Shown one piece after another: positions 16,056 to 61,080 of a stretch of 64,000 bases of DNA. This stretch comes from a virus: positions 48,768-112,767 of IMG/VR virus record IMGVR_UViG_2716884425_000003, one strand, 5' to 3'. Made by a program: the position numbers and the translations under genes. The notes under the pieces were generated by a model, which was not told where the DNA came from, searched no databases, and saw only the letters and a program-made list of their open reading frames with translations. Position 1 is the first letter of the stretch; every line of letters begins with the position of its first letter.

Positions 16056-16330
16056 TTGGCAATGCGGTGCATACCACACTGTTAGTACGCTGCACTAATC
16101 ATGTTGTCCAATGTTGTTATCGCCGCTTTTTTAATTACGACTTCTACATGTCGCCATGCAGTTCGGACTATATCTTCGCTTTTTACAGCGTTGGGCGCTC
16201 GTGGAGGGGTTATTGTTGGGACTCACCCTCTAGTCTCTACACCTTCCGGAAGCACTAAGCCCACTTCCGACTTGGCTCGGTATTGTCTTCTGGAGATGTC
16301 TACCGAATTCACCCAATAAGGCCAATTTAT
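16056..16330 (-). ncRNA. Group I intron-type ribozyme, intergenic, apparently circularly permuted (P1 downstream of core)
   Basis: Minus strand: P3 UUGGGUG(16316-10)/CGCCCAA(16197-91); P4 UUCGGU/ACCGAG; R GUAGAGACUAG (16240-30); P8 CGCU-GUAAAA-AGCG; S AAGAUAUAGUCC (16176-65); P9 UGCAUG-GCGA-CAUGUA; candidate omega-G 16109; P1-like hairpin with U.G at 16081-16060. Confidence 0.88.
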
Positions 16331-16336
16331 TTATAT

Positions 16337-16365
16337 ATTATATACTATATTTTGGTGTTAGTCAA
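16337..16365 (-). promoter_or_regulatory. Consensus sigma70 promoter driving the group I RNA
   Basis: TTGACT-17 nt-TATAAT on the minus strand. Confidence 0.85.
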
Positions 16366-16372
16366 ATTATTA

Positions 16373-49617: not shown

Positions 49618-49668
49618 TTATTCACAATTGGAATGAGACTAGGTCTCAATAAGCGGGACCGGTCCCGC
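49618..49668. repeat. Composite palindromic element copy 1
   Basis: TTATTCACA, TGAGAC-TAG-GTCTCA, GCGGGACCGGTCCCGC. Confidence 0.9.
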
Positions 49669-49753
49669 CGCTATGTAATTACAAGCTTTTTATAGATCAC
49701 TAATAAAAGCAAGCAATACTGTAGCGGTCATAAATATAGGTATCAATTCCATA

Positions 49754-50044
49754 CTAGTTTACCTTCTTGTAGACGGGTTGGCTACGGTGTCCTTCAAAGT
49801 ATGCAGGACTCATGCACGTGACTTCTTCACGACCTGCTTGCACGTACAGGTCACCAACTACATAACCGTTCCAATACCTTTTGTTTTGGTTATAGTAGAA
49901 GTCGATAGCGTTTTGCATCTCATTAACAAAGTTAGGAGTTGCTGGCTTGTGTTCACTAGTGAAGTGAGCGCAAACATTGTCAGGGCCATCGTAACCTTTG
50001 GTTACCTTCTTCTCGAATGCTGATAGTTTAATATAATAGTTCAT
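49754..50044 (-). CDS. Hypothetical protein
   Basis: ORF track. Confidence 0.65.
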   Translation of the reverse strand: MNYYIKLSAFEKKVTKGYDGPDNVCAHFTSEHKPATPNFVNEMQNAIDFYYNQNKRYWNGYVVGDLYVQAGREEVTCMSPAYFEGHRSQPVYKKVN

Positions 50045-50049
50045 AATCT

Positions 50050-50241
50050 TTAGTCTCTGTCTCTGATGTCAAATCCATCGTTATCATTGTAATAACCTTC
50101 TACATTCCACATCTTGTCATAATTGACCTTTGGATATGGCCTTGGGCCTTGTGGTGTGTTGAAGTGTGTGTCCTTGTTCACGCCGTGTGCGTAAACCTTT
50201 TGAGCGTCTAGCTCTGTCTTTTTGTTGTTTGTCATACTCAT
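50050..50241 (-). CDS. Hypothetical protein (C-terminus paralogous to 51055-51399)
   Basis: NYDKMWNVEGYYNDNDGFDIRDRD. Confidence 0.7.
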   Translation of the reverse strand: MSMTNNKKTELDAQKVYAHGVNKDTHFNTPQGPRPYPKVNYDKMWNVEGYYNDNDGFDIRDRD

Positions 50242-50266
50242 AATCTCTTAATCTTTAACTGTGTCT

Positions 50267-50309
50267 AGTATACCATAGGGGGTGGGACATCCGTAGTCCT
50301 ACCGATTAA
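50267..50309 (-). repeat. Hairpin-promoter repeat copy 1
   Basis: GGTGGGAC-atccgta-GTCCTACC plus TGGTATACT box. Confidence 0.75.
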
Positions 50310-50550
50310 CTTTCTCAAATTCATCTACATTCATTGACCAGACCGAATCAACTACCCTACCGTCAGGGCTAACCTCTATGATCTCCACGCCACCCACTAG
50401 GCACTTGGCATCTACTGCGTGCTGTAGGCACTCGTGGGCTTCCTCTAGTAAGGCGTCAAATGACTTGCGGCACTTGACACGGGAGTTGAATACATCACCC
50501 AGAAACCAGAGTTCGTAGGTGGCTTGTCTCTTGTCTTTGTTAATCATCAT
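50299..50550 (-). CDS. Hypothetical protein
   Basis: True start MMINKDK at 50550, 6 nt after TATACT. Confidence 0.7.
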   Translation of the reverse strand: MMINKDKRQATYELWFLGDVFNSRVKCRKSFDALLEEAHECLQHAVDAKCLVGGVEIIEVSPDGRVVDSVWSMNVDEFEKVNR

Positions 50551-50556
50551 GCGTAC

Positions 50557-50598
50557 AGTATACCACGGGGGGTAGGACATCCGCCGTCCTACCAATTA
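50557..50598 (-). repeat. Hairpin-promoter repeat copy 2
   Basis: Perfect GGTAGGAC-N7-GTCCTACC plus TGGTATACT. Confidence 0.75.
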
Positions 50599-50620
50599 AA
50601 AACTTAAAAAAACTTCTTAA

Positions 50621-50663
50621 TGAGACTGAGTCTCAACGGGACCGGTCCCGCCGGCTGTCAAGC
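50621..50663. repeat. Composite palindromic element copy 2
   Basis: TGAGACTGAGTCTCA, GGGACCGGTCCC, TGTCAAGC. Confidence 0.9.
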
Positions 50664-50766
50664 AAAAAGTTTAGCCCCCTAGGAAACCCTAGGGGGTGGC
50701 CTTAATAATCGCGCTGTGTCGCTACAGGTCAGACCTCAAAGGCTCAAGCGCAGGAGTTCAGGCCGT

Positions 50767-50880
50767 CTAAACTACAATCTTCACGAATTGCCCAATCACT
50801 ACGCCAACAATAAGCGCAATGACTCCAATGTTAGTCACGAACAAAGTGTTCGTCCAATCTTTTTTAGTTTTAGTTTGCAT
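50767..50880 (-). CDS. Unannotated 37-aa membrane peptide
   Basis: MQTKTKKDWTNTLFVTNIGVIALIVGVVIGQFVKIVV. Confidence 0.55.
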   Translation of the reverse strand: MQTKTKKDWTNTLFVTNIGVIALIVGVVIGQFVKIVV

Positions 50881-50892
50881 AATAGGTTTATG

Positions 50893-51009
50893 TTAAAATA
50901 AGATAATAAGTGTCGGAAGAATAATCCAAAGTACAATAAAGTGCGCCGCCACAAGTAAGGCAAGCGGCATCAATAGAATTTCCAGAGCGTTAATAAGTGT
51001 TTTCATCAT
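50893..51009 (-). CDS. Unannotated 38-aa hydrophobic peptide
   Basis: MMKTLINALEILLMPLALLVAAHFIVLWIILPTLIILF; ATG 8 nt after the -10 box. Confidence 0.6.
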   Translation of the reverse strand: MMKTLINALEILLMPLALLVAAHFIVLWIILPTLIILF

Positions 51010-51017
51010 CTGTTTAC

Positions 51018-51046
51018 AGTATAGGTTAAATCCGTTAGTTTGTCAA
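51018..51046 (-). promoter_or_regulatory. sigma70-type promoter with GGAT spacer motif
   Basis: TTGACA-aactaacGGATttaacc-TATACT. Confidence 0.85.
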
Positions 51047-51054
51047 TCACAAAG

Positions 51055-51399
51055 TTAGTCACGGCAGCGAATGTCGTGGCCGTCATTGTCTAGGTAATAA
51101 CCTTGGACATTCCATTGCCTGTCGTAGTTCTGGGCAACGGGAAGATCCTTGTGGGAAGGAGCTTTTTGGCTCGCTTGGTAAACGTGCAGATCTTCCAAGT
51201 AATCATCAACTTCGTCTTGGCTGGCGTAATGCACAGCGTCGAATGGTACGGTGACACCGTAACCAGAACCGTCAAAAGATTCCAGCCACGCACCCTCACA
51301 GGATACGATGTTTACCAAGCGGCAAGGTTGGCCGCTGAGTGCGTTGATGTAAATAGCTCCGAGGATTAGGTTGTTTGCTTTCATTGTTTCGTTCTTCAT
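51055..51399 (-). CDS. Hypothetical protein
   Basis: True start MKNETMK (51399); the ORF-track N-terminus is a translated promoter. Confidence 0.7.
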   Translation of the reverse strand: MKNETMKANNLILGAIYINALSGQPCRLVNIVSCEGAWLESFDGSGYGVTVPFDAVHYASQDEVDDYLEDLHVYQASQKAPSHKDLPVAQNYDRQWNVQGYYLDNDGHDIRCRD

Positions 51400-51408
51400 T
51401 ATGTTAAT

Positions 51409-51437
51409 ACTATACCACACTTCTGCTTAATTGTCAA
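51409..51437 (-). promoter_or_regulatory. sigma70-type promoter
   Basis: TTGACA-17-TATAGT. Confidence 0.8.
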
Positions 51438-51552
51438 GTGCTTTTTTAATCTTTTTTAATTCTTTTACCTTTGCTACTAGCTCGTGCCATCTTTTCACGC
51501 GCTCGGTTTGCTCTCTGTAAATGTTTTCTTGTAGCTTGTTTATGTCGTTCAT
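51427..51552 (-). CDS. Unannotated 41-aa helical peptide
   Basis: MNDINKLQENIYREQTERVKRWHELVAKVKELKKIKKALDN; own promoter at 51562-51589. Confidence 0.55.
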   Translation of the reverse strand: MNDINKLQENIYREQTERVKRWHELVAKVKELKKIKKALDN

Positions 51553-51606
51553 CTTGTTAATACTATACCATAAAATGAAAAAAAGTCAACCCCTAAAATC
51601 AAAAAG

Positions 51607-51649
51607 TTATTCACAAAATGAGACTCAGTCTCAACGGGACCGGTCCCGC
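51607..51649. repeat. Composite palindromic element copy 3
   Basis: TTATTCACA, TGAGACTCAGTCTCA, CGGGACCGGTCCCG. Confidence 0.9.
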
Positions 51650-51675
51650 CGGTATAAAAGTCTAGCTATAAAATA

Positions 51676-51909
51676 CTAGAACTTCTCTACAAAAAATTCT
51701 TCGCCCCAAGCTTCCAAGTGAAATTCTTCTTTTGGCAGCCAGCCCCGCCAGTCATCAGATGCACGAACTAACCACATAGGCGGAAGGGCGTTATCATTTC
51801 GACGCTCTAAAATAAAACCTTTTGTGCCGTGCTCACGGATACGGTTTTTGGTGCGTTGGGTTGCGTTAGTCTTTGGACTAATCAGGATGCGATGGTTTTC
51901 AATATTCAT
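51676..51909 (-). CDS. Hypothetical protein
   Basis: ORF track. Confidence 0.65.
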   Translation of the reverse strand: MNIENHRILISPKTNATQRTKNRIREHGTKGFILERRNDNALPPMWLVRASDDWRGWLPKEEFHLEAWGEEFFVEKF

Positions 51910-51910
51910 A

Positions 51911-52351
51911 CTAAAATTCCTTTTGGTCTTGGTTTACTAATTCTCCTAACTCGCCTAATCCTACCAGATTCCGCTCGTCATTGTCAACTAACTTTCTTTG
52001 GACAAACTTGGCAATTCTGATTTTCTTGGCGGCAACTCGCTTGCTGCTAACCTTGGCCCAGTCTTTTGGTTCGTTAACGTCTACGCCTACGGTGACGATT
52101 CGACCGACATTGAATCCGAGAGCTTCAAGGGCTATGCGGATAAACTGTGCATTCTCTGGGCCGCGTGCGGTAAGAATGTCAAATTCTTTGCCAGAGTCTC
52201 TAACCAAAACACCTAGCGGAGTCAAATCATGCTCTGTGAGGTTAAGGATTGCGTGAGGTTTCAAAAAGTCAAATAGACGGTCGGAGCCGCGCTCCTCACG
52301 GATAAGGGTTCCGTCTAGGTCAAATAGTGGTTTTAATTTCTCGTTCATCAT
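51911..52351 (-). CDS. HAD-superfamily hydrolase-like protein
   Basis: LFDLDGTL, ILTARG, LVDND; true start MMNEK (52351). Confidence 0.7.
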   Translation of the reverse strand: MMNEKLKPLFDLDGTLIREERGSDRLFDFLKPHAILNLTEHDLTPLGVLVRDSGKEFDILTARGPENAQFIRIALEALGFNVGRIVTVGVDVNEPKDWAKVSSKRVAAKKIRIAKFVQRKLVDNDERNLVGLGELGELVNQDQKEF

Positions 52352-52357
52352 GTTAAT

Positions 52358-52386
52358 ACTATAGCTTAATTTTGCCAAAAAGTCAA
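52358..52386 (-). promoter_or_regulatory. sigma70-type promoter
   Basis: TTGACT-17-TATAGT, ATG 6 nt downstream. Confidence 0.8.
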
Positions 52387-52395
52387 GAAGTTTTT

Positions 52396-52509
52396 TCAAC
52401 TTTCTTCAACTTCAACCCACTCATCTTCTTCGTTGGTTGCGGGGTACACGGTGACCTCGAAAGGCCCGAAGGTGAATGTTTCTTCTCTCTCACTTTCTTT
52501 ATTCTTCAT
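52396..52509 (-). CDS. Unannotated 37-aa acidic peptide
   Basis: MKNKESEREETFTFGPFEVTVYPATNEEDEWVEVEES. Confidence 0.55.
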   Translation of the reverse strand: MKNKESEREETFTFGPFEVTVYPATNEEDEWVEVEES

Positions 52510-52515
52510 GCGTAC

Positions 52516-52558
52516 AGTATAGCACGCGAGGTTAGACATCCGTAGTCCCACCGATTAA
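52516..52558 (-). repeat. Hairpin-promoter repeat copy 3 (degenerate)
   Basis: GACATCCGTAGTCCCACCGATTAA plus TATACT. Confidence 0.7.
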
Positions 52559-52568
52559 AAAGTTTTAA

Positions 52569-52609
52569 TGAGACTGAGTCTCAACGGGACCGGTCCCGCG
52601 GCTGTCAAG
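52569..52609. repeat. Composite palindromic element copy 4
   Basis: TGAGACTGAGTCTCA, CGGGACCGGTCCCG, TGTCAAG. Confidence 0.9.
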
Positions 52610-52659
52610 AAAAAAATATAAAAATTGCACAAAAAAAAGCCCGCTTGCGCGGGTTGTGT

Positions 52660-52884
52660 TTACAGAAGCTCGCGCTTCTCCAGCCACTTCGCATAGGCGG
52701 GGGAGTCGTCCTCCCAGCAGATGCGCATGGCACGGTCGTGATCATACTCACGAATCTCCTCCTCGCGTACGCGCACGGTGCGACCGTCATCCTTGAGGAT
52801 GAGCCACTTGCCATTGCGCGGCGAGGCGGCGACTACTCCGAGGTAGCCGTTGAGGTTTTCAACCTCCATACCTAATTCAATCAT
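52660..52884 (-). CDS. Small SH3/KOW-like hypothetical protein
   Basis: ELGMEV...GVV...WLILKDDGRTVRV. Confidence 0.55.
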   Translation of the reverse strand: MIELGMEVENLNGYLGVVAASPRNGKWLILKDDGRTVRVREEEIREYDHDRAMRICWEDDSPAYAKWLEKRELL

Positions 52885-52935
52885 AGCGATATAATAAGGG
52901 CGCGATTTCCAAGGCCATCGCGCTGGCCCATGATG

Positions 52936-53154
52936 TTATTCCTTCCACTGTAAATCCAAGTAACCTTCATACTCGGACTTGTACTGCTTCCACTCGGCAT
53001 CCGTCATCAGAGGCCCGTGGACTGCGACCAGATCCGCCCAACTCTCTTGCTCCAAGAGTAGCTGTTGGCGGCTCTCATACTCCTCGTGTTCGATCTGTGC
53101 TTCGATGTCGGGAGTGATGGTTTCTTCTATGGTTGGCATCATGTCGCTCATCAT
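52936..53154 (-). CDS. Hypothetical acidic protein
   Basis: True start MMSDMM (53154). Confidence 0.65.
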   Translation of the reverse strand: MMSDMMPTIEETITPDIEAQIEHEEYESRQQLLLEQESWADLVAVHGPLMTDAEWKQYKSEYEGYLDLQWKE

Positions 53155-53160
53155 GTTAAG

Positions 53161-53189
53161 AATATAACACACATCCAGAAGCTGTGCAA
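53161..53189 (-). promoter_or_regulatory. sigma70-type promoter with GGAT spacer motif
   Basis: TTGCAC-agcttctGGATgtgtgt-TATATT. Confidence 0.75.
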
Positions 53190-53207
53190 GCACTTTTTTG
53201 CATTAAA

Positions 53208-53279
53208 TTATTCACAGTATAGGTATAAAAAAAGCTTGACGCCGGCCGGGACCGGTCCCGAAAATGAGACCGAGTCTCA
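53208..53279. repeat. Composite palindromic element copy 5 (opposite orientation)
   Basis: TTATTCACA...GCTTGACG, CGGGACCGGTCCCG, TGAGACCGAGTCTCA. Confidence 0.9.
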
Positions 53280-53423
53280 TTAAGAAACTCGGCCCATTAT
53301 GGAAAAATAGTTTTATATAATAGTATTTTTTTTATATAGGCAATCCTTTCTATTTAATTATTACTTTTATGTATTAGTTCAGCAACTAGCAAGGCGGATA
53401 ATCCAAGTAACAAAATTGTCATT

Positions 53424-53618
53424 TTATATATCGACGTAGATTTTGGCTTCAAGCTGGTAGCGTTCTACTTCGAGAATTTCGTCGTGTTCGTTTTTACAAT
53501 AGAGTTGCTGTTTGTCTCTTGACAGGCCCACAACTTCCAATAGATCATCATCAGTGTGAATGGTGTCGCCGTGGTCTACTTGTTTAATCTGGCTTTTTAA
53601 TAGTTTCATATTCATCAT
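53424..53618 (-). CDS. Hypothetical protein
   Basis: ORF track. Confidence 0.6.
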   Translation of the reverse strand: MMNMKLLKSQIKQVDHGDTIHTDDDLLEVVGLSRDKQQLYCKNEHDEILEVERYQLEAKIYVDI

Positions 53619-53638
53619 CTTTGTTACTTTGTTTTTGT

Positions 53639-54418
53639 CTAATTAGCCTTTGCCGATTTCTTAATCGCTTGTAAGGCCAAACTCGCTGCGCTCCCCGCTG
53701 GCTGTGTGCCGTGAATCAGCAACGCAAAGTTATCTTCGCCAAATGCTGCGTGCGTATCGTCGTGGTCGATTTCTAATCCACGCTCGGCGGCTTCTTCTTC
53801 ACTGTAAACCACGAGAGCTTCTTTCCAACCGTGAAGGTCAATCAAATCGTCATGCTTGCCACCACGGGAAGCAGTCAAAACAAGATTCTCAGGCAAGGCA
53901 AATTGCTTGAACAAATGCAAGCTCTTGCTGTAAGAGTAAAACACCTTGTCGGGATTCAGCTTGGCAACTTCAATCCACGCTTGCAAATACTCCTTGTTGA
54001 AGTAATCGCCGCCAACGTGAACGCGCATGATGTCGAACTTCTTCGGCAAGCTCTTGTGGATGAGTTGCGAGGTGTGCGGCATTCCGCATCCCGCGCCATC
54101 CACCACGAAGCCAAGCGCATTCTCAAATCCGGCTTGTGCGTCACGCTTCAGGGCTTCTTTAATCAATTCAAGGTTATGCCAAACGAGTTTTCTTAATGAT
54201 GGGGAACGCGCCTCTGCGCTTGCCATGAAACAGCGAAACACTGTGTCCGGCCCATCGGTGACTTTTCCCGTTACTCTGTCAGCACGGGAAAAACAATCCT
54301 TTGCCGCTGGGCAAGTATGCCCTGCGGGAAGTGTGAAGGTTTTCAGCACAAGGCCGACCTTCTTAATCATTTTCTTGAGCTTGGCGTTAGGGTCGCCAAA
54401 TTTGAGTTTGTCCATCAT
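53639..54418 (-). CDS. Gp88-like phage protein (Cys-containing)
   Basis: FTLPAGHTCPAAKDC...CFMA...RVHVGGDYF...FYSYSKS...LTASRGG. Confidence 0.75.
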   Translation of the reverse strand: MMDKLKFGDPNAKLKKMIKKVGLVLKTFTLPAGHTCPAAKDCFSRADRVTGKVTDGPDTVFRCFMASAEARSPSLRKLVWHNLELIKEALKRDAQAGFENALGFVVDGAGCGMPHTSQLIHKSLPKKFDIMRVHVGGDYFNKEYLQAWIEVAKLNPDKVFYSYSKSLHLFKQFALPENLVLTASRGGKHDDLIDLHGWKEALVVYSEEEAAERGLEIDHDDTHAAFGEDNFALLIHGTQPAGSAASLALQAIKKSAKAN

Positions 54419-54426
54419 CTTTGTAT

Positions 54427-54455
54427 AGTATAGGCTTTATCCGGTCGCGTGTCAA
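54427..54455 (-). promoter_or_regulatory. sigma70-type promoter with GGAT spacer motif
   Basis: TTGACA-cgcgaccGGATaaagcc-TATACT. Confidence 0.85.
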
Positions 54456-54457
54456 TC

Positions 54458-54883
54458 TTAAACGTCACACGTTCCGTTGTTAAATGATTTTTCTTCGTTA
54501 GTGTAAACATCGCCCATCGTGTAAACGTGACCTTCGCGCCCGTAGCGCATGGAAACATCTTTGCGCTCCATACCGTCGAACTTCTCCTTGGCAAAAGCCT
54601 TGGCGTAAGGCATCGCGCCACCCTTGGCAGTCTTAAACGCCTCGGCGTTTTCGTTCAGCATCAGAGCCAAGTAAATGTTCTCCAATGCGCGGAGCAACTT
54701 TTCCTCGGTGGTGCAAAAAGCCAATTCATTCTCAAAGATCCACTCTGGCGCGTCTTGACTTGTCGCCTCATGGTTCCAGAATGAGTTAAACCACGCCTCG
54801 GCGAGTTCTGCGTTTTCAGCCTTCAAGTAAATCTTGAGCCAGCCGTGGGAGTCGGGGATGTATGTGAGTTTGATGTTTTTCAT
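54458..54883 (-). CDS. Hypothetical protein
   Basis: ORF track; promoter 54893-54921 (TTGACA-17-TATACT). Confidence 0.7.
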   Translation of the reverse strand: MKNIKLTYIPDSHGWLKIYLKAENAELAEAWFNSFWNHEATSQDAPEWIFENELAFCTTEEKLLRALENIYLALMLNENAEAFKTAKGGAMPYAKAFAKEKFDGMERKDVSMRYGREGHVYTMGDVYTNEEKSFNNGTCDV

Positions 54884-54907
54884 TGTTCGAGTAGTATATA
54901 GGATTTT

Positions 54908-55036
54908 CTAGTTGGTGTCAATACTTTTTTTATGTTTTTGTTTGCGAGTGTAAGAGCCTTTGCCCTTCTTTACTTTATGCTCACGGGACGCACTGCCCAT
55001 GAACCCGTTCGGATTTACTCTTGCTTTAATCTTCAT
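54908..55036 (-). CDS. arfA: Unannotated 42-aa ArfA-like ribosome rescue peptide
   Basis: MKIKARVNPNGFMGSASREHKVKKGKGSYTRKQKHKKSIDTN contains the ArfA signature KKGKGSYxRKxKH. Confidence 0.75.
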   Translation of the reverse strand: MKIKARVNPNGFMGSASREHKVKKGKGSYTRKQKHKKSIDTN

Positions 55037-55087
55037 GGACGTAGTCTAACAGAAACGGAAACAAAAGGCGAGAAAAAAATGAAAAAA

Positions 55088-55159
55088 TAATTCACACCCT
55101 GTGCATAAAAAAAGCTTGACAGGGCCGGGACCGGTCCCGCCAAATGAGACTGAGTCGCA
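55088..55159. repeat. Composite palindromic element copy 6
   Basis: TAATTCACA...GCTTGACA, CGGGACCGGTCCCG, TGAGACTGAGTCGCA. Confidence 0.9.
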
Positions 55160-55241
55160 ATAAGTATCTATGTGATTTTTATACTATAGGCACACAATAA
55201 AAAATCCCTCCTATTTGATAGGAAGGATTATTTGAAGTTAT

Positions 55242-55757
55242 TTAGAGTTTGTAAAAAACGTGCTTGCCTATTTTTGCCACAGGCTTGATTGGTACTTTAA
55301 CTTCTCTGCCGTTCTTAATTACTTTCTTGTATGTCCAATAGGGAGGTTTAATATCCGTGGAATAATAGTGATTAGCATCACCAACCCAAGCGTGATTTAA
55401 TTGTTGATTGGCACAAATAGATTTGGCAACCAACTTGGCGTACCGCACGATGATACATTTGGAATCCCAAAGGTAATCTAACTCACTTTCTTTCTTAACC
55501 TTTCCTTTGCCAGCGTTCCAAATGCTAAACTGCCAAGGTTGCAAGCATACTTGTGCGGGGGTGAGCTTACGTTGCGCTGCGCGTTTTTGTATAACGCAAG
55601 CAACTCCATATACGCCAATTTCAGATTCCCCACGCGCTTCGCCCAACAACGTCAGAGCGACAATGCGCTCTTCAGTTGTTAGGGAAAAATCTGCCGCCGC
55701 TGCACTAGCAAAGACAATGAAGATAATGAATCCAATAATGATGTGTATCCGTTCCAT
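55242..55757 (-). CDS. SleB-like cell wall hydrolase (Hydrolase_2) with N-terminal signal/TM
   Basis: ALTLLGEARGE, CLQPWQFSIWN, ANHYY, PPYW, IGKHVFY. Confidence 0.85.
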   Translation of the reverse strand: MERIHIIIGFIIFIVFASAAAADFSLTTEERIVALTLLGEARGESEIGVYGVACVIQKRAAQRKLTPAQVCLQPWQFSIWNAGKGKVKKESELDYLWDSKCIIVRYAKLVAKSICANQQLNHAWVGDANHYYSTDIKPPYWTYKKVIKNGREVKVPIKPVAKIGKHVFYKL

Positions 55758-55763
55758 GATTCT

Positions 55764-55792
55764 AGTATAGGGGTTATCCGGTAAAAAGTCAA
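55764..55792 (-). promoter_or_regulatory. sigma70-type promoter with GGAT spacer motif
   Basis: TTGACT-ttttaccGGATaacccc-TATACT. Confidence 0.85.
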
Positions 55793-55850
55793 GGGGAGAG
55801 AGAGCCTCAAGAGGCGAAGCATTACGCCAAGCCCTCCCTCCCCGTTAGGG

Positions 55851-56321
55851 TTAAGCGTTAGCCTTCTTTGCTTGCCTAGCTCGCTTCACTTGTGCGAGCT
55901 TTCGTGCCAGCTTCCGCTTGTTGGCGACCATGCGCTTTTCAGTCATGGTGCGCGTTCCCTGCACCCACGCTACAATCTTGTCGTAGACGGTGGGACTGAT
56001 GGACGAAACATCTCCGTAAAATCCATCGTTGTTAGTGTTACCCGATACGATAACGTCAGGGAGCAACTGCGCTACGGCGCGAACCGTGTTGATGTGCTTC
56101 TGCTCCGTGAGCTTGTCGTTTTTAGTGCCACTGTTGGCGTGGATGGTGTCAAACAGACGACCATCGAACCCAACGCCACCGCTGACGTTGAATCCACACG
56201 CCATCTTGCCAGCTTTACGCTGCTCGACACCGTTGCGGGTTTTACCAGCATACAGGAGAATCTTTCCGTTCTCAAGTTCTGTGCCAGTGATGTAGTTAGT
56301 ATGTGAATGTAGGTTGTTCAT
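55851..56321 (-). CDS. Hypothetical protein with basic C-terminus
   Basis: ORF track; promoter 56359-56387 (TTGACT-GGAT spacer-TAACAT). Confidence 0.7.
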   Translation of the reverse strand: MNNLHSHTNYITGTELENGKILLYAGKTRNGVEQRKAGKMACGFNVSGGVGFDGRLFDTIHANSGTKNDKLTEQKHINTVRAVAQLLPDVIVSGNTNNDGFYGDVSSISPTVYDKIVAWVQGTRTMTEKRMVANKRKLARKLAQVKRARQAKKANA

Positions 56322-56406
56322 CAGTTTTTAGTATATGTTTTTGTCTCGCACTGTTTCTATGTTACTAGATATCCGATTCGTAGTCAACATAAAAATTAAT
56401 AAAATT

Positions 56407-56982
56407 AAAAAAATTGAGGCGGCTGTCGGCGTTGTTGCTTCCAATCACTTTAATGGGTTGACCAACCTCAAATTATCTAAATTAGTGGGAAGATGGATTG
56501 CTGCATTACCATCAAGACCAGTACACAATACAGTTCAGTTTTACCAGTCTACTAAAACTACGAGAGTCATACGATTGCACTCTCTCAAGTAGCCTCATGC
56601 CTTTCCCCTTATGGTGGAGGGATATTCAGCCATTCCCTTGGGGCAACCGTCGCCGCCCCAAAATTTATAGCCCTCGGTTACGACAAGGTCTGCCGACCAA
56701 GTCTCGCAAGGACATCCTGCCTGTGCCACATGACTGCACCCAGCTTTGTGCGGATTGCGACTCCGCTGTCTCTAAGGTTTCGACACCTTAAAGGCTGAAC
56801 AGGATTAAGTTATTGCATAGGCCGCTACCTCTACGGGCGTTTAGTGTTCTTCACCTATGCTGCTGGTGCTTCCTCGTCCCTAACAGGGCGCGTACCCTGT
56901 TCGCTACGTTAGGCTTGCCAAGACTGTGTTTCGTCTCCCAGCAAAATTGTTTCAAAGATCGTGGAGGTGTTACCCTCACTGT
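56407..56982 (-). ncRNA. Large (~575 nt) highly structured non-coding RNA of unknown class
   Basis: Dedicated promoter (56989-57017), no credible minus-strand ORF, >10 hairpins and multibranch stems whose G.U pairs work only on the minus strand, terminal stem plus U-run. Confidence 0.75.
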
Positions 56983-56988
56983 TTTAAT

Positions 56989-57017
56989 AGTATACCGCAC
57001 ATCCGGTTTCAGTGCAA
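56989..57017 (-). promoter_or_regulatory. sigma70-type promoter with GGAT spacer motif driving the large ncRNA
   Basis: TTGCAC-tgaaaccGGATgtgcgg-TATACT. Confidence 0.8.
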
Positions 57018-57049
57018 GTCTTTTTTTACTTTTTTTTACTTAAGTTTAG

Positions 57050-57087
57050 GCTTGACAAGGGCGGGACCGGTCCCGCGGGTGTCAAGC
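57050..57087. repeat. Composite palindromic element copy 7 (symmetric form)
   Basis: GCTTGACA-agg-GCGGGACCGGTCCCGC-ggg-TGTCAAGC. Confidence 0.9.
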
Positions 57088-57107
57088 AAAAAGTTTCCCC
57101 AATGGCA

Positions 57108-57133
57108 AAAAAAATCCCCGCCCGAAGGCGGGG
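57108..57133 (-). terminator. Rho-independent terminator
   Basis: CCCCGCC-TTCG-GGCGGGG plus U-run; same hairpin as at 12287-12304. Confidence 0.85.
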
Positions 57134-57153
57134 GGTGTGTTTGTAGGTTTGGC

Positions 57154-58089
57154 CTAGTTGTTCTCGACCTTTACGCCGTCAGCCTTGGCAACCGCCACCA
57201 GCTTCTCGAACCGCTTGGGGTTGTCGCTGGCGAGGTTGAACCGCTTGAGGAGTTGACCGCTGACGCGGTTGGCGTACTCGAAGCGGGTAGACTCGAACGT
57301 GCCGACAGCATCGCCAGACTTCTTGTCAACCAAGTTGTCACTGGTGAGGTACTGCGTGGCAGCGTTGTACAGTTGGTACAGGTTGCGGTCATCGCCTACC
57401 GAACCGTCAGCACCATCCTCGCGTGGGTTGTTCCACACGCTCGAAATGCCCTCGCGCACCTTGTCAGAAATCAAACCAGTGTCGGCTTGGTTTTGCAGGG
57501 CGAAGATGCCTTGCTCCTGAGTGATGCCAACGCGAGCCAGCGCGGCGTAGGTGTTGCCCGTTTTGGTGAACGAGGCGAGTGCCTTGTCGATGGCGTCATC
57601 GGTCAGCAAGGCGTTGAGGTCGAACTTCTTGGAGTGCTTCTTGAGCATATCCAGTTCTTTCTCAAGCGTCTGCATACCGTTGGTGCAAACAAGGCGAAGC
57701 ATACCGAGCGCAAAGGATACGCGCAGCGAGCGGTCAAACGAGTTTTGCAAGGTGAGGCGGAAGCCCATCTTGTCACCCACTTCTGGCACTTCAATGTCGT
57801 GGCCCTTGAAGTCGTAATTGACGCGGAGCTTGGCCCCGCCGTCAGTCACATAAATGTTGCGCTCGTAGTCGCCAAGACCCTTGCGAGCGAAAGCACTTTC
57901 TGCTTTCTCTACTAGGTCGGCGTTTTGTACGATGCCGTAGCGGCTCGTATGACAGCCCAGCACCTCGTTGTTGTCGAGGCGGCGGGATGCGAAGAAACCG
58001 GACTTTTTGCCGTCAGGCAGGAAAAGCTCCTCCTGCGCTACGGTGAAATCCCAGTCTTTATTCTTGCTTTGTTTTGCGGTAATAGGCAT
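57154..58089 (-). CDS. DUF932/DUF945-family phage protein
   Basis: YGIVQN...LTLQNSFDRS...GMLRLVCTNGM...NLYQLYNAATQY. Confidence 0.85.
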   Translation of the reverse strand: MPITAKQSKNKDWDFTVAQEELFLPDGKKSGFFASRRLDNNEVLGCHTSRYGIVQNADLVEKAESAFARKGLGDYERNIYVTDGGAKLRVNYDFKGHDIEVPEVGDKMGFRLTLQNSFDRSLRVSFALGMLRLVCTNGMQTLEKELDMLKKHSKKFDLNALLTDDAIDKALASFTKTGNTYAALARVGITQEQGIFALQNQADTGLISDKVREGISSVWNNPREDGADGSVGDDRNLYQLYNAATQYLTSDNLVDKKSGDAVGTFESTRFEYANRVSGQLLKRFNLASDNPKRFEKLVAVAKADGVKVENN

Positions 58090-58136
58090 ATGTTCGTTCT
58101 CTTTGGTTAGATGTTATGTCTCAATCGACTAAAACC

Positions 58137-58165
58137 ATTATCTCACATATCCAAATCACTTGCAA
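58137..58165 (-). promoter_or_regulatory. sigma70-type promoter with GGAT spacer motif
   Basis: TTGCAA-gtgatttGGATatgtga-GATAAT. Confidence 0.65.
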
Positions 58166-58340
58166 GCATAAAATGCGTGTCACAAGCATCTTTTTTTTAT
58201 CCCCTAATTGTTGCCGTTAATTAGACCGTCATTTATGAGCGACAAATCCATTTGCCAACCAAAAAACGCAAAAAGTGATCGGCAAGTTTCGTAAAAAGGG
58301 GAGTTTTCTCCGGTGCGAAATATCGCCAAAACACGAAATC

Positions 58341-58400
58341 TTCACAGGCTGTGAATAAAAAAAGCTTGACGGCCGCGGGACCGGTCCCGGCGTGTCAAGC
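58341..58400. repeat. Composite palindromic element copy 8
   Basis: TTCACA-ggc-TGTGAATAA, GCTTGACG, GGGACCGGTCCC, TGTCAAGC. Confidence 0.9.
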
Positions 58401-58463
58401 AAAAAAAAAGAGGCAGGACCCGGTCAAACACAAAAAACCCGGGCCCTGCCGTTGGTGGAAAAG

Positions 58464-58676
58464 TTAATCTAATATTCTACGACTATACTCCCATGAGGGT
58501 ACGTGATTATGATGACCGTGAGCATGCCAATGACCACGCTCGTGTGGCTTATGATAAACGTTAACTTTGTGACCCAAGAAGCTCGTAGTAAAATGCGAGT
58601 TATCTTTATAAGTTCCTGATGTCCAAGAACTGCAGCCACTGGCTAGCGCTATCAATATGACTAGGATCCACTTCAT
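58464..58676 (-). CDS. Small His-rich lipoprotein
   Basis: MKWILVILIALASGC lipobox; HERGHWHAHGHHNH. Confidence 0.65.
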   Translation of the reverse strand: MKWILVILIALASGCSSWTSGTYKDNSHFTTSFLGHKVNVYHKPHERGHWHAHGHHNHVPSWEYSRRILD

Positions 58677-59185
58677 TAGTTAGCCTCCTGATTGACTGGT
58701 ACCTGTGCCCAGCACGTGGGGCCAATGATCACTTTGCGTGCGGTAAAGACCGGCTCGTAGACGTCTTCAATTGAACGAAGAGGATCTGTGTCACGAGTCA
58801 TGAACGTCTTGTACTTGTAGGGATTATATACAAGCTCAAGCCATCGATATCCCTCGCGGTCGTGCGCCTTGATGGCAGCCTCTTGCCAGTCTCTGGCGAC
58901 ATCCTTTGCGTGACCGAGGTCGAATGCATCCATGTCATTATCATACCACACGGCATTGACCATATGCCCGCGCACTACAGCGTGCACGTTCTTGCGCTGC
59001 TCTTCACGTACGCGCTCGTTGCCCTTAGGCCCGACCGCGAGCTTGACTGGCTTAGCAGTACTGCCATCAAGGATAACCATCAGGGCATGCCCCTCCACAA
59101 GACCGTCCTTGCGCACGGAATAAACGATGTCGTCCCTGAAGTGCAGGTTGCGGTACACCTCGCGTTTAAAAATGCTAGCGTCCAT
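58676..59185 (-). CDS. Conserved-looking phage hypothetical protein
   Basis: VYRNLH...GNERVREEQRKNVHAVVRG...YNPYK motif pattern. Confidence 0.7.
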   Translation of the reverse strand: MDASIFKREVYRNLHFRDDIVYSVRKDGLVEGHALMVILDGSTAKPVKLAVGPKGNERVREEQRKNVHAVVRGHMVNAVWYDNDMDAFDLGHAKDVARDWQEAAIKAHDREGYRWLELVYNPYKYKTFMTRDTDPLRSIEDVYEPVFTARKVIIGPTCWAQVPVNQEAN

Positions 59186-59409
59186 TACACCTCCTCCTCC
59201 TCGGTTCCATCAAGAATGCCAAAAATTTCATCTTGGCAAGTCTGACAAAAACCTGATAGTCGGAATTCCTTCTCGGAAATCTCATCACGAAAGTTGAGAT
59301 CGTAGGTTCCGCACTTGACGCACTGTCCAGCTGCGATTGCTAGCTGACGACTGCGACCGAACATGGAAAACGCCATGTCTTCTTTGTATTGCTCTAGTTC
59401 GTTCATCAT
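59185..59409 (-). CDS. Small zinc-finger protein
   Basis: CVKC...CQTC. Confidence 0.7.
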   Translation of the reverse strand: MMNELEQYKEDMAFSMFGRSRQLAIAAGQCVKCGTYDLNFRDEISEKEFRLSGFCQTCQDEIFGILDGTEEEEV

Positions 59410-59416
59410 GTATACC

Positions 59417-59445
59417 AGTCTACTACAGATCCGTTTCTATGTCAA
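59417..59445 (-). promoter_or_regulatory. sigma70-type promoter with GGAT spacer motif
   Basis: TTGACA-tagaaacGGATctgtag-TAGACT. Confidence 0.8.
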
Positions 59446-59479
59446 CAGTAAACTTATCCCCAACCCCACAAGAAAAAAA

Positions 59480-59571
59480 GCTTGACGTCGCGGGACCGGT
59501 CCCGGCGGTGTCAAGCATAAAATGAAAAAACTTATTCACAGGTATAGTTATAAGGTTGAGACTTAATCTCA
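59480..59571. repeat. Composite palindromic element copy 9
   Basis: GCTTGACG, CGGGACCGGTCCCG, TGTCAAGC, TTATTCACA, TGAGACTTAATCTCA. Confidence 0.9.
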
Positions 59572-59867
59572 TCTACATCATTAATATAAACCTTACTTAT
59601 TTGGCATGTTTATTTGGCTTATTTCGGACTCATATTTAACGAGCCTATTCTTCGCACCTTATTTTAACATAACCTGTTTGAGCTTGCCTTATTATATTTT
59701 GCAAGGTCTTATTTATTATTACACTTTGATGGGGTAAAATACAAAAAAAATCCCCCCCGCTTTTACACGAGGAGGATTCGATGATGATGAACGAACCGTG
59801 GACATTGCATCCACTATCTATATATTAGCCTACTTCCTGACTAAATTCAAGTTTATTTTTACTTTAT

Positions 59868-60161
59868 TTACCATTGTAAGAATTCAATTATGTTATTTAT
59901 ATTTACTTTCTTCTCTATTATATTCTTTATATTGCTATTCTCTTGTCCTGCATATATATAATCTACTATGTATAAATCATCTTCTATTTCTGCTATCTTA
60001 ACCTTCCAAGCACCTAGGTTGTATTTGAACTTATAAAATAACTCACCTTCATTTAATGTGCCGCGCCATTCAAACTCTGACATCTGGAATGGTTCGCCAT
60101 CTATCTTATATTTATTTTTTACTAGTCTTGTTTGACTTGTTGGTTTTATTATCAAGCTCAT
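59868..60161 (-). CDS. Hypothetical protein
   Basis: ORF track; start uncertain (overlaps the end of ruvB). Confidence 0.5.
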   Translation of the reverse strand: MSLIIKPTSQTRLVKNKYKIDGEPFQMSEFEWRGTLNEGELFYKFKYNLGAWKVKIAEIEDDLYIVDYIYAGQENSNIKNIIEKKVNINNIIEFLQW

Positions 60162-61080
60162 TAAGATACTCCAATCCTTTGCTGGTTAGTGAACGACCCT
60201 CTGGCTGAATCTCCATGAGTCCCATCTTGGACAGGTACAACTCGTAGTCCTTCTGGATAGCACCCTTGGACAGTCCAGTGATAGCGGCAAGCTCGGTGAG
60301 GCGAGTAGCCTTCTTGCGAGCCATGTAACGCATGAGGTTGAGTTCCTGTACGCTCAGGCCGAGCGGGAGGATACCGATGCGGTCACACAACGATGCCCAA
60401 TCCTTCTTGTCAAAGTGCTTCTTACCCTTGGCATCGAGGTAAAGGCGCATCTTGGTCGCCATCTTTTGCGCTGCACGGGCGTTACCGCGCAGTACGTTAG
60501 AAATCTCGGAGAGTGTCTTGGGTTCGACAGTGTAACCGTCAAGGCCCATCATCACAATCTGACCAAGCTCATCTAACTTATATTCTTCTAGGTCGATGCG
60601 CTCCATTCTGTCCATGAGTGCATGGAAGATGCTCTGACCCTCGGTAGTGGCGAACATGAAGCTCAAGCGGCGAAAGTCAAACGTCACGTTGTAATCCTCG
60701 TAGGAGAAGTCGTTACGATTGTCTGGATTGGGGTTGGTGATGGTCAACAACGCCATTGTTACGTCCTTGGGCAACTCGGAACACTCGTCGAACAGCACGG
60801 TAGCGTCACGCTCGACCATGTGCGGAATCACAATCATGTTGAAGAACTGCTTGAGACTCTTGATGGTAGAGCAGTTGATGGTAATGAGAGGTTTGATGCT
60901 GCCCTCTGCATACAGGTTCTTTGCCATCGCAGTTGCCATAGTGGTCTTGCCACAACCGCGAGGTGCTGTAAACATGAGGTGAGGAATCACGCTGGTCTCT
61001 TTGTGTCCGTCAATGTAAAAGCCTAGTGCTTTCTTCACACGGGATTGTCCAATAATGTCTGGGAAGTAGGTATCAGTCAT
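60112..61080 (-). CDS. ruvB: RuvB-like AAA+ branch-migration ATPase
   Basis: IIGQ, Walker A APRGCGKT, LFDE, FATT, LMDR, RGNARAA, C-terminal winged helix ending GRSLT. Confidence 0.85.
   Translation of the reverse strand: MTDTYFPDIIGQSRVKKALGFYIDGHKETSVIPHLMFTAPRGCGKTTMATAMAKNLYAEGSIKPLITINCSTIKSLKQFFNMIVIPHMVERDATVLFDECSELPKDVTMALLTITNPNPDNRNDFSYEDYNVTFDFRRLSFMFATTEGQSIFHALMDRMERIDLEEYKLDELGQIVMMGLDGYTVEPKTLSEISNVLRGNARAAQKMATKMRLYLDAKGKKHFDKKDWASLCDRIGILPLGLSVQELNLMRYMARKKATRLTELAAITGLSKGAIQKDYELYLSKMGLMEIQPEGRSLTSKGLEYLNELDNKTNKSNKTSKK

What the first reader, a model, noticed from the sequence alone, without database searches (positions are those of the whole stretch)
54908..55048. Unannotated phage ArfA-like ribosome-rescue peptide
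Seen in sequence: a 42-aa ORF below the ORF-track cutoff, MKIKARVNPNGFMGSASREHKVKKGKGSYTRKQKHKKSIDTN, leaderless 6 nt after a TAGACT box. Established: E. coli ArfA carries KKGKGSYMRKGKH, which binds the mRNA entry channel, and is normally made only from truncated mRNA because its full-length hydrophobic tail leads to degradation. This copy stops 6 residues after the motif with no hydrophobic tail, so it may be constitutive. Inference: an early phage factor that frees stalled host ribosomes, or blocks the mRNA channel, for example after host mRNA cleavage or anti-phage RNase activity.
Basis: partly seen in the sequence, partly recalled or inferred. Interest (0 to 1): 0.66.

Follow-up and report, generated by a model that had tools for sequence, protein, structure and literature searches.

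The report
Miniature ArfA-like peptide of marine phages
An uncultured marine phage carries a real, conserved 42-codon early gene whose product copies the ribosome-docking half of the bacterial rescue factor ArfA but has a different, shorter front half, so it probably acts on ribosomes stalled on broken mRNAs, although no function has been tested.

Summary
It is a real gene. There are 42 homologue clusters at 90% identity and 80 at 50%. Across 31 distinct coding sequences synonymous sites are saturated (pS 0.72) while pN is 0.19. The gene order is conserved in 100-180 kb marine phage contigs.

The ArfA likeness is significant but covers only the C-terminal half:
- Pfam ArfA: E 5e-5, 23.1 bits, just under the 25.5-bit cut-off.
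- BLASTP against E. coli ArfA: 13 of 18 identical.
- Profile-profile comparison: 95% probability, E 2e-8, residues 17-38 matching ArfA 27-48.

That stretch holds the strand that docks on RF2 and the basic KH tail that fills the empty mRNA channel. ArfA's N-terminal RF2-activating minidomain has no detectable counterpart; an invariant 16-residue module stands in its place.

The leaderless reading gains comparative support. In 17 of 32 distinct upstream regions a sigma-70-type -10 box ends 5-7 nt, mostly 6, before the ATG. The gene has its own stop codon and no hairpin, so it lacks ArfA's non-stop control.

Phage ArfA genes are already annotated (RXM, HTVC027P, J2-1), and this scan has noted them on other DNA 135 times. 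This is therefore a new variant of a known kind. Function is untested.

The parts
54908..55036 (-). 42-codon gene for the ArfA-like peptide (ATG 55036-55034, TAG stop 54910-54908)
   Evidence: ORF listing. Homologues. Purifying selection.
54923..54988 (-). Residues 17-38, the stretch homologous to E. coli ArfA Q27-R48. It covers the counterpart of the RF2-docking strand, the KKGKGSY turn and the basic tail with the KH motif.
   Evidence: hhalign 95.3% probability, E 2.4e-8, 22 columns. BLASTP 13/18 identical. Pfam ArfA profile positions 25-44. PDB hits to ArfA only. Roles of the ArfA residues from PMC8012679 and PMC5378476.
54989..55036 (-). Residues 1-16, a family-specific N-terminal module (consensus KARVNPxGFMGSA; R6, G11, M13, G14 and A16 invariant) with no detectable ArfA counterpart
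   Evidence: Alignment A1. No profile alignment to ArfA residues 1-26.
55043..55051 (-). Extended -10 element TGT-TAGACT, ending 6 nt before the ATG
   Evidence: Sequence. The same spacing occurs in 17 of 32 distinct homologous upstream regions against 0.4 in shuffles.
55066..55071 (-). Weak -35 element TCGCCT, 17 nt upstream of the -10
   Evidence: Sequence. It aligns with TTGACA/TTGACT in paralogous intergenic modules and in homologous loci.
54893..54921 (-). Promoter of the next gene (TTGACA-17-TATACT). Its -35 box lies inside codons 39-41 (I-D-T) of the peptide gene.
   Evidence: Promoter scan, 11 of 12 matches. The same overlap is seen in homologues whose tails end in ID, LD or FD.
55203..55229 (-). 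Intrinsic-terminator-like hairpin (12-bp stem plus T run) after the upstream cell-wall hydrolase gene
55105..55165 (-). Composite palindromic module (core GGGACCGGTCCC at 55127-55138) followed by a T run. It is a second hairpin that insulates the gene from upstream transcription.
   Evidence: Nine copies in the window against 0.02 expected. Alignment A2. Fold.
54458..54883 (-). Conserved downstream neighbour, a 141-aa protein of unknown function with an FWNHGAT motif
   Evidence: It directly follows the peptide gene in at least 11 distinct loci. Alignment A4. Model pLDDT 80, no significant fold match.
53639..54418 (-). GP88-family gene (PF17338), third member of the conserved gene order
   Evidence: Pfam E 1.1e-32. 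Synteny.

Best explanation
The ORF is a translated early phage gene for a miniature ArfA-type peptide.

Shown: it is conserved under purifying selection in a lineage of large marine phages. Residues 17-38 are homologous to ArfA residues 27-48.

From published ArfA structures: that part of ArfA lays a beta-strand onto the domain II/IV sheet of release factor RF2. It also threads a basic tail, ending in a Lys-His motif, into the mRNA channel, which is free only on ribosomes stalled at the 3' end of a truncated mRNA.

Inferred: the phage peptide docks on such stalled host ribosomes in the same way. Its own invariant 16-residue N-terminal module would recruit and activate a host class I release factor, which frees the nascent chain so the ribosome can be recycled for phage translation.

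Shown by sequence and comparison: the gene has its own sigma-70-type promoter whose -10 box ends 6 nt before the ATG, which implies a leaderless mRNA. It has a normal stop codon, no hairpin and no hydrophobic tail. Its synthesis should therefore not depend on failure of tmRNA, unlike bacterial arfA.

Inferred benefit: it keeps ribosomes available when host or phage RNases, including defence RNases, generate many non-stop mRNAs early in infection.
For: Gene reality:
- 42 clusters with 17 invariant residues.
- 80 clusters at 50% identity, 53 of them at E<1e-10.
- pN 0.19 against pS 0.72 over 31 distinct coding sequences.
- Conserved order DUF932 / peptide / 141-aa gene / GP88.
- 45 viral contigs carry it, against 2 MAG contigs among 185,579 species genomes.

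Homology to ArfA:
- Pfam PF03889 E 5.2e-5, and 25.7 bits in the six-frame search.
- PDB profile search hits ArfA chains only.
- BLASTP 13/18 identical, E 8e-6.
- hhalign 95.3% probability, E 2.4e-8.
- The nearest ESM Atlas clusters carry PF03889.

Length is sufficient: ArfA is active when cut at N47 (PMC5378476), which equals residue 37 of this peptide.

Small size is no bar: ArfT is about 40 aa (PMC8012679).

Leaderless promoter: 17 of 32 distinct upstream regions, 14 with exactly 6 nt, against a shuffle mean of 0.4.

Own stop codon and no RNA structure (z -0.72).

No release-factor (PF00472) or Pth (PF01195) domain in the 136.5-kb record, so a host factor would be needed.
Against: No counterpart was detected for ArfA's N-terminal minidomain (residues 2-26), with Ala18 and the Leu19/Leu24/Phe25 patch that opens RF2. 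In E. coli the A18T mutant still binds and recruits RF2 but does not release the peptide, so docking without activation is a real possibility. The protein-level Pfam score (23.1 bits) is below the gathering score of 25.5. No canonical ArfA appears among the 80 hits of the family profile in the 1.84-billion-protein search. The host is unknown, so whether it has RF2 of the ArfA-responsive type or its own ArfA is unknown. Transcription and translation are not shown directly: the only RNA-library evidence is one metatranscriptome contig over 54611-55048, which cannot prove transcription.
Confidence: 0.55

Rival explanations
1. Channel plug or rescue inhibitor. The peptide docks in the vacant mRNA channel, and perhaps holds a release factor in its compact inactive form, but does not trigger release. 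It would thereby compete with tmRNA-SmpB, ArfA or ArfB. That would block host rescue or tagging, or any defence that depends on them.
For: Only the docking half is homologous to ArfA. The RF2-activating minidomain is missing, and ArfA A18T shows that docking and recruitment can occur without release (PMC8012679). A peptide equivalent to the SmpB tail inhibits trans-translation (PMC8012679).
Against: The N-terminal 16 residues carry five invariant positions, which a pure channel plug would not need. Locking up stalled ribosomes would cost the phage translation capacity. The counterpart of the RF2-docking strand (S17-H20) is retained and conserved.
Confidence: 0.2
2. Ribosome-binding peptide with another role. 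By occupying the empty channel of vacant 70S ribosomes, it might favour or regulate translation of the phage's many leaderless early mRNAs.
For: The peptide gene and at least five neighbouring early genes have -10 boxes 6-9 nt before the ATG. Leaderless mRNAs are known to initiate on 70S ribosomes (established knowledge, not tested here).
Against: A peptide in the mRNA channel would be expected to compete with mRNA loading, not help it. No known factor works this way. The leaderless layout is general to the early region and not specific to this gene.
Confidence: 0.08
3. Generic basic nucleic-acid-binding peptide whose motif resembles ArfA by common descent or convergence but which does not act on ribosomes.
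For: The peptide is predicted disordered on its own (pLDDT 61) and is very basic. Some family members have lost KGKGS or KH.
Against: There are 13 identities in 18 with E. coli ArfA, including G-K-G-S-Y and K-H in register. Conservation of non-basic positions (G25, G27, S28, H35) is strict. PDB and Atlas searches return only ArfA.
Confidence: 0.1
4. Not a gene: a chance ORF in an intergenic or regulatory stretch.
For: It is short and fell below the ORF cut-off. Its last codons overlap a promoter.
Against: Amino-acid conservation persists with saturated synonymous change. There are 80 clusters in public data. Gene order is conserved.
Confidence: 0.01

Closest known systems
ArfA (YhdL; Pfam PF03889; PDB 5MDV, 5MGP, 5U4I, 5H5U) of beta- and gammaproteobacteria
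   Same: The segment SREHKV-KKGKGSY-x-RK-x-KH aligns without gaps to ArfA Q27-R48. That covers the RF2-docking strand, the Gly-Lys-Gly-Ser turn and the basic tail with the KH motif that fills the mRNA channel. Both are small and disordered on their own.
   Different: The phage peptide has no detectable counterpart of ArfA residues 1-26 (the minidomain with A18, L19, L24 and F25 that opens RF2), and 16 family-specific residues stand in its place. It has its own stop codon 7 codons after KH. It has no hydrophobic tail and no RNase III or terminator hairpin, so it lacks tmRNA-dependent control. Its mRNA is leaderless. It is phage-borne. Its Pfam score is just under the cut-off.
ArfA genes annotated in cultured phages: Citromicrobium phage vB_CbaS-RXM g10, Pelagibacter phage HTVC027P gp30, Pseudoalteromonas phage J2-1, Brevundimonas jumbo phages; unannotated ones in pf16, Cr30 and CRP-1/9/212
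   Same: These are phage-encoded small basic peptides with the ArfA C-terminal motif. HTVC027P gp30 is reported as transcribed early and late (PMC12753301). None has been tested for function in any paper I found.
   Different: The cultured-phage peptides keep an ArfA-like N-terminal region, and their alignments to E. coli ArfA start at residues 4-14. The window's type (GFMGSASREH) found no match in 50,697 phage records. It is about 4 residues shorter between the NP position and the KKGKGS motif.
ArfT (Francisella, about 40 aa) and BrfA (Bacillus): release-factor-dependent rescue factors unrelated in sequence to ArfA
   Same: Size class, basic C-terminus in the mRNA channel, a KH motif in BrfA, and strand addition to the release factor (PMC8012679). 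They show that a roughly 40-residue peptide can do the whole job.
   Different: No sequence relationship to these was tested or seen here. BrfA, like ArfA, is made from a non-stop mRNA.

Membership tests
ArfA (PF03889) | C-terminal basic motif KGKGSYxRKxKH (mRNA-channel tail with KH) | tested here: met
   KKGKGSYTRKQKH at residues 23-35. 13 of 18 identical to E. coli ArfA 28-45. K24, G25, K26, G27, S28, R31, K34 and H35 are invariant in the family.
ArfA (PF03889) | Score at or above Pfam's gathering threshold (25.5 bits) | tested here: inconclusive
   23.1 bits, E 5.2e-5, for the protein. 25.7 bits in the six-frame search of the phage record. Some homologues carry a precomputed PF03889 hit.
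ArfA (PF03889) | Mid-region strand (Q27-E30) that docks on the RF2 domain II/IV sheet | tested here: inconclusive
   S17-R18-E19-H20 aligns to Q27-R28-V29-E30 in the profile-profile alignment. Only R18/R28 is identical.
ArfA (PF03889) | N-terminal hydrophobic minidomain (residues 2-26; A18, L19, L24, F25) that opens RF2 | tested here: not met
   No alignment to profile positions 1-24 in Pfam, PDB or hhalign searches. Only 16 residues precede the homologous part. MAFFT suggests a shared N-P position with a 4-residue deletion that removes the L24/F25 equivalents; this is a hint only.
ArfA (PF03889) | Made from a non-stop mRNA (internal hairpin, RNase III site or terminator) with a hydrophobic, destabilising C-terminal extension | tested here: not met
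   A stop codon follows 7 codons after KH. The mRNA shows no significant structure (z -0.72). Nearly all distinct homologues stop 1-10 codons after KH; in L011 the frame runs on into the next gene.
ArfA (PF03889) | RF2-dependent peptidyl-tRNA hydrolysis on non-stop ribosomes | not testable with these tools
   This needs an in vitro release assay or genetic complementation.
Phage-encoded ArfA-like peptides (annotated in GenBank, uncharacterised) | Small phage ORF with the ArfA C-terminal motif, conserved among related phages | tested here: met
   Phage context. 45 viral contigs. Annotated cultured-phage examples.

The most novel reading that the evidence does not exclude
The invariant N-terminal module (KARVNPxGFMGSA) is a new release-factor-activating device, different from ArfA's minidomain. 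It would let the peptide work with release factors of hosts that have no ArfA, possibly RF1 as well as RF2 as ArfT does. If so, this family is a phage-specific, constitutively made rescue factor used early in infection to undo ribosome stalling caused by RNase-based defences or by host mRNA decay.
Probability: 0.25. Interest if true: 0.7.

Novelty: new variant of a known kind. Interest (0 to 1): 0.42.

Why it matters
If the peptide does rescue ribosomes, it would be among the smallest natural rescue factors. It would also be a compact natural experiment: the ribosome-sensing half of ArfA joined to a different activating half, free of tmRNA control. That would show which parts of ArfA are really needed to open a release factor. 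It would also give phage biology a concrete case of a virus managing the host's pool of stalled ribosomes, for example against RNase-based defence. If it only plugs the channel, it is a natural inhibitor of ribosome rescue, a pathway under study as an antibiotic target (PMC8012679). Either way, the family is abundant in marine viromes and mostly unannotated.

Tried and rejected
Nothing was learned.
- AlphaFold2 of the peptide alone gave pLDDT 61 and no secondary structure. This is uninformative, as expected for a peptide that folds only on the ribosome.
- Nucleotide and protein searches of the region and the peptide against 50,697 phage records found nothing. DUF932 and a 503-aa structural protein also found nothing.
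- The 608-aa ORF (29574-31400) gave only remote terminase-like hits in Bacillus phages. GP88 gave only remote cyanophage hits. The host stays unknown.
- No tRNA or tmRNA gene is present in the window or in the whole 136.5-kb record.
- I looked for bacterial ArfA in 151 genomes of the class of a MAG that carries a homologue. Only 2 matches came back, too few to say anything about the host's own ArfA.
- The two bacterial MAG contigs with homologues (Ignavibacteria, Pseudomonadales) are probably binned phage contigs and were not used for host assignment.
- RNA-library contigs: one run has a 438-nt contig over 54611-55048. Contigs cannot show transcription, strand or ends, and this one reaches 12 nt upstream of the ATG. 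I draw no conclusion for or against a leaderless start.
- Fold search of the conserved 141-aa neighbour gave its best matches to RNA polymerase subunit Rpb11/L at E 0.015 and TM 0.34-0.54. This is not significant and was not pursued.
- I considered that the conserved ID/LD ending of the peptide is functional. I rejected this because it is the -35 box of the next gene's promoter.

Full report
**1. Observation**

On that strand the upstream sequence reads TCGCCT, then 17 nt, then TGT-TAGACT, then ACGTCC, then ATG. The TAGACT box (55043-55048) therefore ends 6 nt before the start codon. The open frame is only 45 codons, so no other start is available. Seven residues, not six, follow the KH of the motif. 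There is no hydrophobic tail.

**2. It is a real gene**

- A word-indexed search of 5.8 billion proteins found 42 clusters of 40-74 aa. Seventeen positions are invariant: R6, G11, M13, G14, A16, R18, E19, H20, V22, K24, G25, K26, G27, S28, R31, K34 and H35.
- An exhaustive profile search of 1.84 billion representatives found 80 clusters at 50% identity, 53 of them at E<1e-10.
- A scan of IMG/VR returned 45 viral contigs of up to 178 kb. A scan of 185,579 species genomes returned only two MAG contigs.
- For 31 distinct coding sequences of the 31-residue core, mean pN is 0.19 and mean pS is 0.72, which is saturated. The pooled pN/pS is 0.26. The amino-acid sequence, not the DNA, is what is conserved.
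- Gene order is conserved. The order RuvB-like ATPase, L5 gp82-like, DUF932, the peptide gene, GP88 is seen in 100-kb relatives. In at least 11 distinct loci the peptide gene is directly followed by a homologue of the window's 141-aa gene and then by GP88.
- The window belongs to a 136.5-kb IMG/VR virus record with ordinary phage genes around the ORF. The peptide gene is single-copy there, and the record has no tRNA or tmRNA gene.

**3. How far the ArfA likeness goes**

- Pfam ArfA (PF03889) matches residues 17-36 to profile positions 25-44 of 44. The E-value is 5.2e-5 and the score 23.1 bits, just under the curated 25.5. The six-frame search of the phage record gives 25.7 bits.
- A profile of the family searched against all PDB sequences returns six sequences, all E. 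coli ArfA, at best E 1.5e-3.
- I fetched E. coli arfA from NC_000913.3. BLASTP gives 13 of 18 identities with no gaps, E 8e-6, aligning R18-H35 with R28-H45.
- A profile-profile comparison used a small ArfA alignment made of enterobacterial ArfAs, two other bacterial ArfAs and two viral canonical-type peptides. It gives 95.3% probability and E 2.4e-8 over 22 columns, aligning S17-S38 with Q27-R48.
- The ESM Atlas neighbours are clusters in which 33-82% of members carry PF03889.
- JGI has already named some family members 'stalled ribosome alternative rescue factor ArfA'.

The literature says what this segment does in ArfA. Q27-E30 add a strand to the domain II/IV sheet of RF2. Residues 31-48 lie in the mRNA tunnel. 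The KH motif binds a pocket there. ArfA is still active when cut at N47 but not after M40 (PMC8012679; PMC5378476). With the 10-residue offset, the phage peptide runs to the equivalent of ArfA residue 52, so its tail is long enough.

**4. What is missing and what replaces it**

No search aligned the first 16 residues to ArfA residues 1-26. In ArfA that region folds into a minidomain whose Ala18 core and Leu19/Leu24/Phe25 patch engage the RF2 switch loop and open the factor. The A18T mutant still binds the ribosome and recruits RF2 but does not release the peptide.

The phage family instead has an invariant-rich module with consensus KARVNPxGFMGSA. A MAFFT alignment with phage ArfAs of the canonical type places a shared N-P position in register. 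It implies a 4-residue deletion that would remove the L24/F25 equivalents. That is a hint, not a test.

AlphaFold2 sees the peptide alone as disordered. The complex predictor was not available.

The phage record encodes no release-factor (PF00472) or Pth (PF01195) domain. Any hydrolysis must therefore use a host factor.

**5. Expression signals**

In 17 of 32 distinct upstream regions of homologues there is a sigma-70-type promoter, often CTTGACA, 17 nt, TGn-TATATT. Its -10 hexamer ends 5-7 nt before the ATG, and exactly 6 nt in 14 cases. Shuffled controls give a mean of 0.4 and a maximum of 3. A transcript starting about 7 nt after the -10 would begin at the A of the ATG.

The window's own promoter is weaker (TCGCCT / TGT-TAGACT) but has the same geometry. 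The layout is not special to this gene: at least five neighbouring early genes have TATACT 6-9 nt before their ATG, whereas several structural genes have ordinary AGGAG sites.

Upstream, two hairpins followed by T runs insulate the gene. One is a 12-bp terminator after the hydrolase gene. The other is one of nine composite GGGACCGGTCCC palindromes.

Downstream there is no terminator. Instead, the -35 box (TTGACA) of the next gene's promoter lies inside codons 39-41. In homologues, the recurring ID, LD or FD endings are likewise TTGAC boxes, and NCE-stop endings are the TGTGAATAA box. The tail beyond KHKK is therefore shaped by regulatory DNA, and the functional peptide is about 37 residues.

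The mRNA has no significant structure (z -0.72). Nearly all distinct homologues have a stop 1-10 codons after KH; in L011 the frame runs on into the next gene. The non-stop, tmRNA-dependent control that defines bacterial arfA is absent.

Direct evidence of transcription is lacking. One metatranscriptome run holds a contig over 54611-55048, but contigs cannot show transcription or ends.

**6. Mechanism**

Most likely (about 0.55): the peptide senses ribosomes with an empty mRNA channel through its ArfA-type tail. It docks a host class I release factor through the conserved strand and its own N-terminal module, and so frees ribosomes stalled on truncated mRNAs. It would be made early and independently of tmRNA status.

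Main rival (about 0.2): it docks without activating release and so blocks tmRNA-SmpB or other rescue. The missing minidomain and the A18T precedent favour this rival. The five invariant N-terminal residues, the retained strand and the cost to the phage of locked ribosomes argue against it.

Lesser rivals: a role in leaderless translation, or a ribosome-unrelated basic peptide.

**7. Comparison with what is known, and novelty**

Phage ArfA genes are already in GenBank and in papers as annotations:

- Citromicrobium phage RXM g10 (PMC8953757).
- Pelagiphage HTVC027P gp30, reported as expressed early and late (PMC12753301).
- Pseudoalteromonas phage J2-1 and Brevundimonas jumbo phages.
- Unannotated copies in pf16, Cr30 and CRP phages.

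I found no paper that tests one.

This scan has also noted phage ArfA-like peptides before on other DNA: 135 notes in at least 117 genomes.

What is new here is the subfamily. It has a shorter peptide with a different, strictly conserved N-terminal module. It is known only from uncultured marine phages, with no match in 50,697 phage records. It has a fixed leaderless promoter geometry and an ordinary stop. I file it as a new variant of a known kind. It works like ArfA in its docking half, but it is not a demonstrated member of the family, because two defining features were tested and not met: the activating minidomain and the non-stop control.

Noticed in passing
window 54893-54925; L002, L007, L013, L020, L030, L035 (3' ends of the peptide genes): The last codons of the peptide gene encode the -35 box (TTGACA/TTGACT) of the next gene's promoter. 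The conserved ID, LD or FD endings of homologues are therefore a DNA-level constraint, not a protein-level one. Other homologues end in NCE-stop, which is the TGTGAATAA box also found in the window's intergenic modules.
   Followed up: yes
window 53639-61080, minus strand: At least five early genes (starts at 54418, 54883, 55757, 56321 and 61080) have a TATACT -10 box 6-9 nt before the ATG and no Shine-Dalgarno site, so they would be leaderless. Several structural genes (for example starts at 14083, 20648 and 21267) have AGGAG sites. Three of these early promoters share CGGATAA in the spacer.
   Followed up: partly
window 49655-59503: There are nine copies of the palindrome GGGACCGGTCCC (0.02 expected). 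They are combined in a modular way with GCTTGACA/TGTCAAGC arms, a GAGACTnAGTCTC palindrome and a TGTGAATAAnTTTTT box. All are intergenic, and on the transcribed strand they fold as hairpins followed by T runs.
   Followed up: partly
window 54458-54883 (-): A 141-aa protein of unknown function (motif FWNHGAT, then KGGAMP) directly follows the peptide gene in at least 11 distinct loci. The AlphaFold2 model is confident for residues 1-110 (pLDDT 80 overall). The best fold matches are RNA polymerase subunit Rpb11/L at a non-significant E of 0.015.
   Followed up: partly
P0106 (532 aa), P0126 (148 aa), P0130 (118 aa): In a few metagenomic proteins the same peptide module, including the N-terminal KVRVNPEGMMGSAS part, forms the C-terminus or an internal part of a much longer, acidic protein. 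This points to fused or processed forms.
   Followed up: no
L011:454-864: In one viral contig the peptide gene has no stop after KH. It runs in frame through the next gene's promoter and start into that gene, giving a 136-aa reading frame.
   Followed up: no
L043-L044 and L049-L052 (about 73-132 kb viral contigs); L045-L048; L042: Viral contigs hold at least three other peptide types with the same KKGKGSYTRKxKH tail but unrelated N-terminal halves. One of them (L045 type) keeps the ArfA-like NPIARLL region at ArfA spacing.
   Followed up: partly
P0144, P0145, P0143: Some family members keep the N-terminal module and the KH motif but have lost KGKGS (for example KVKTKVIPRKLKHK). The Gly-Lys-Gly-Ser turn is therefore not indispensable in every lineage.
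   Followed up: no
window 56482-56660 and 16144-16401 (-): Rfam finds a manA RNA (69.5 bits) and a group I intron (57.9 bits) in the window. Earlier notes of this scan have already covered both.
   Followed up: no
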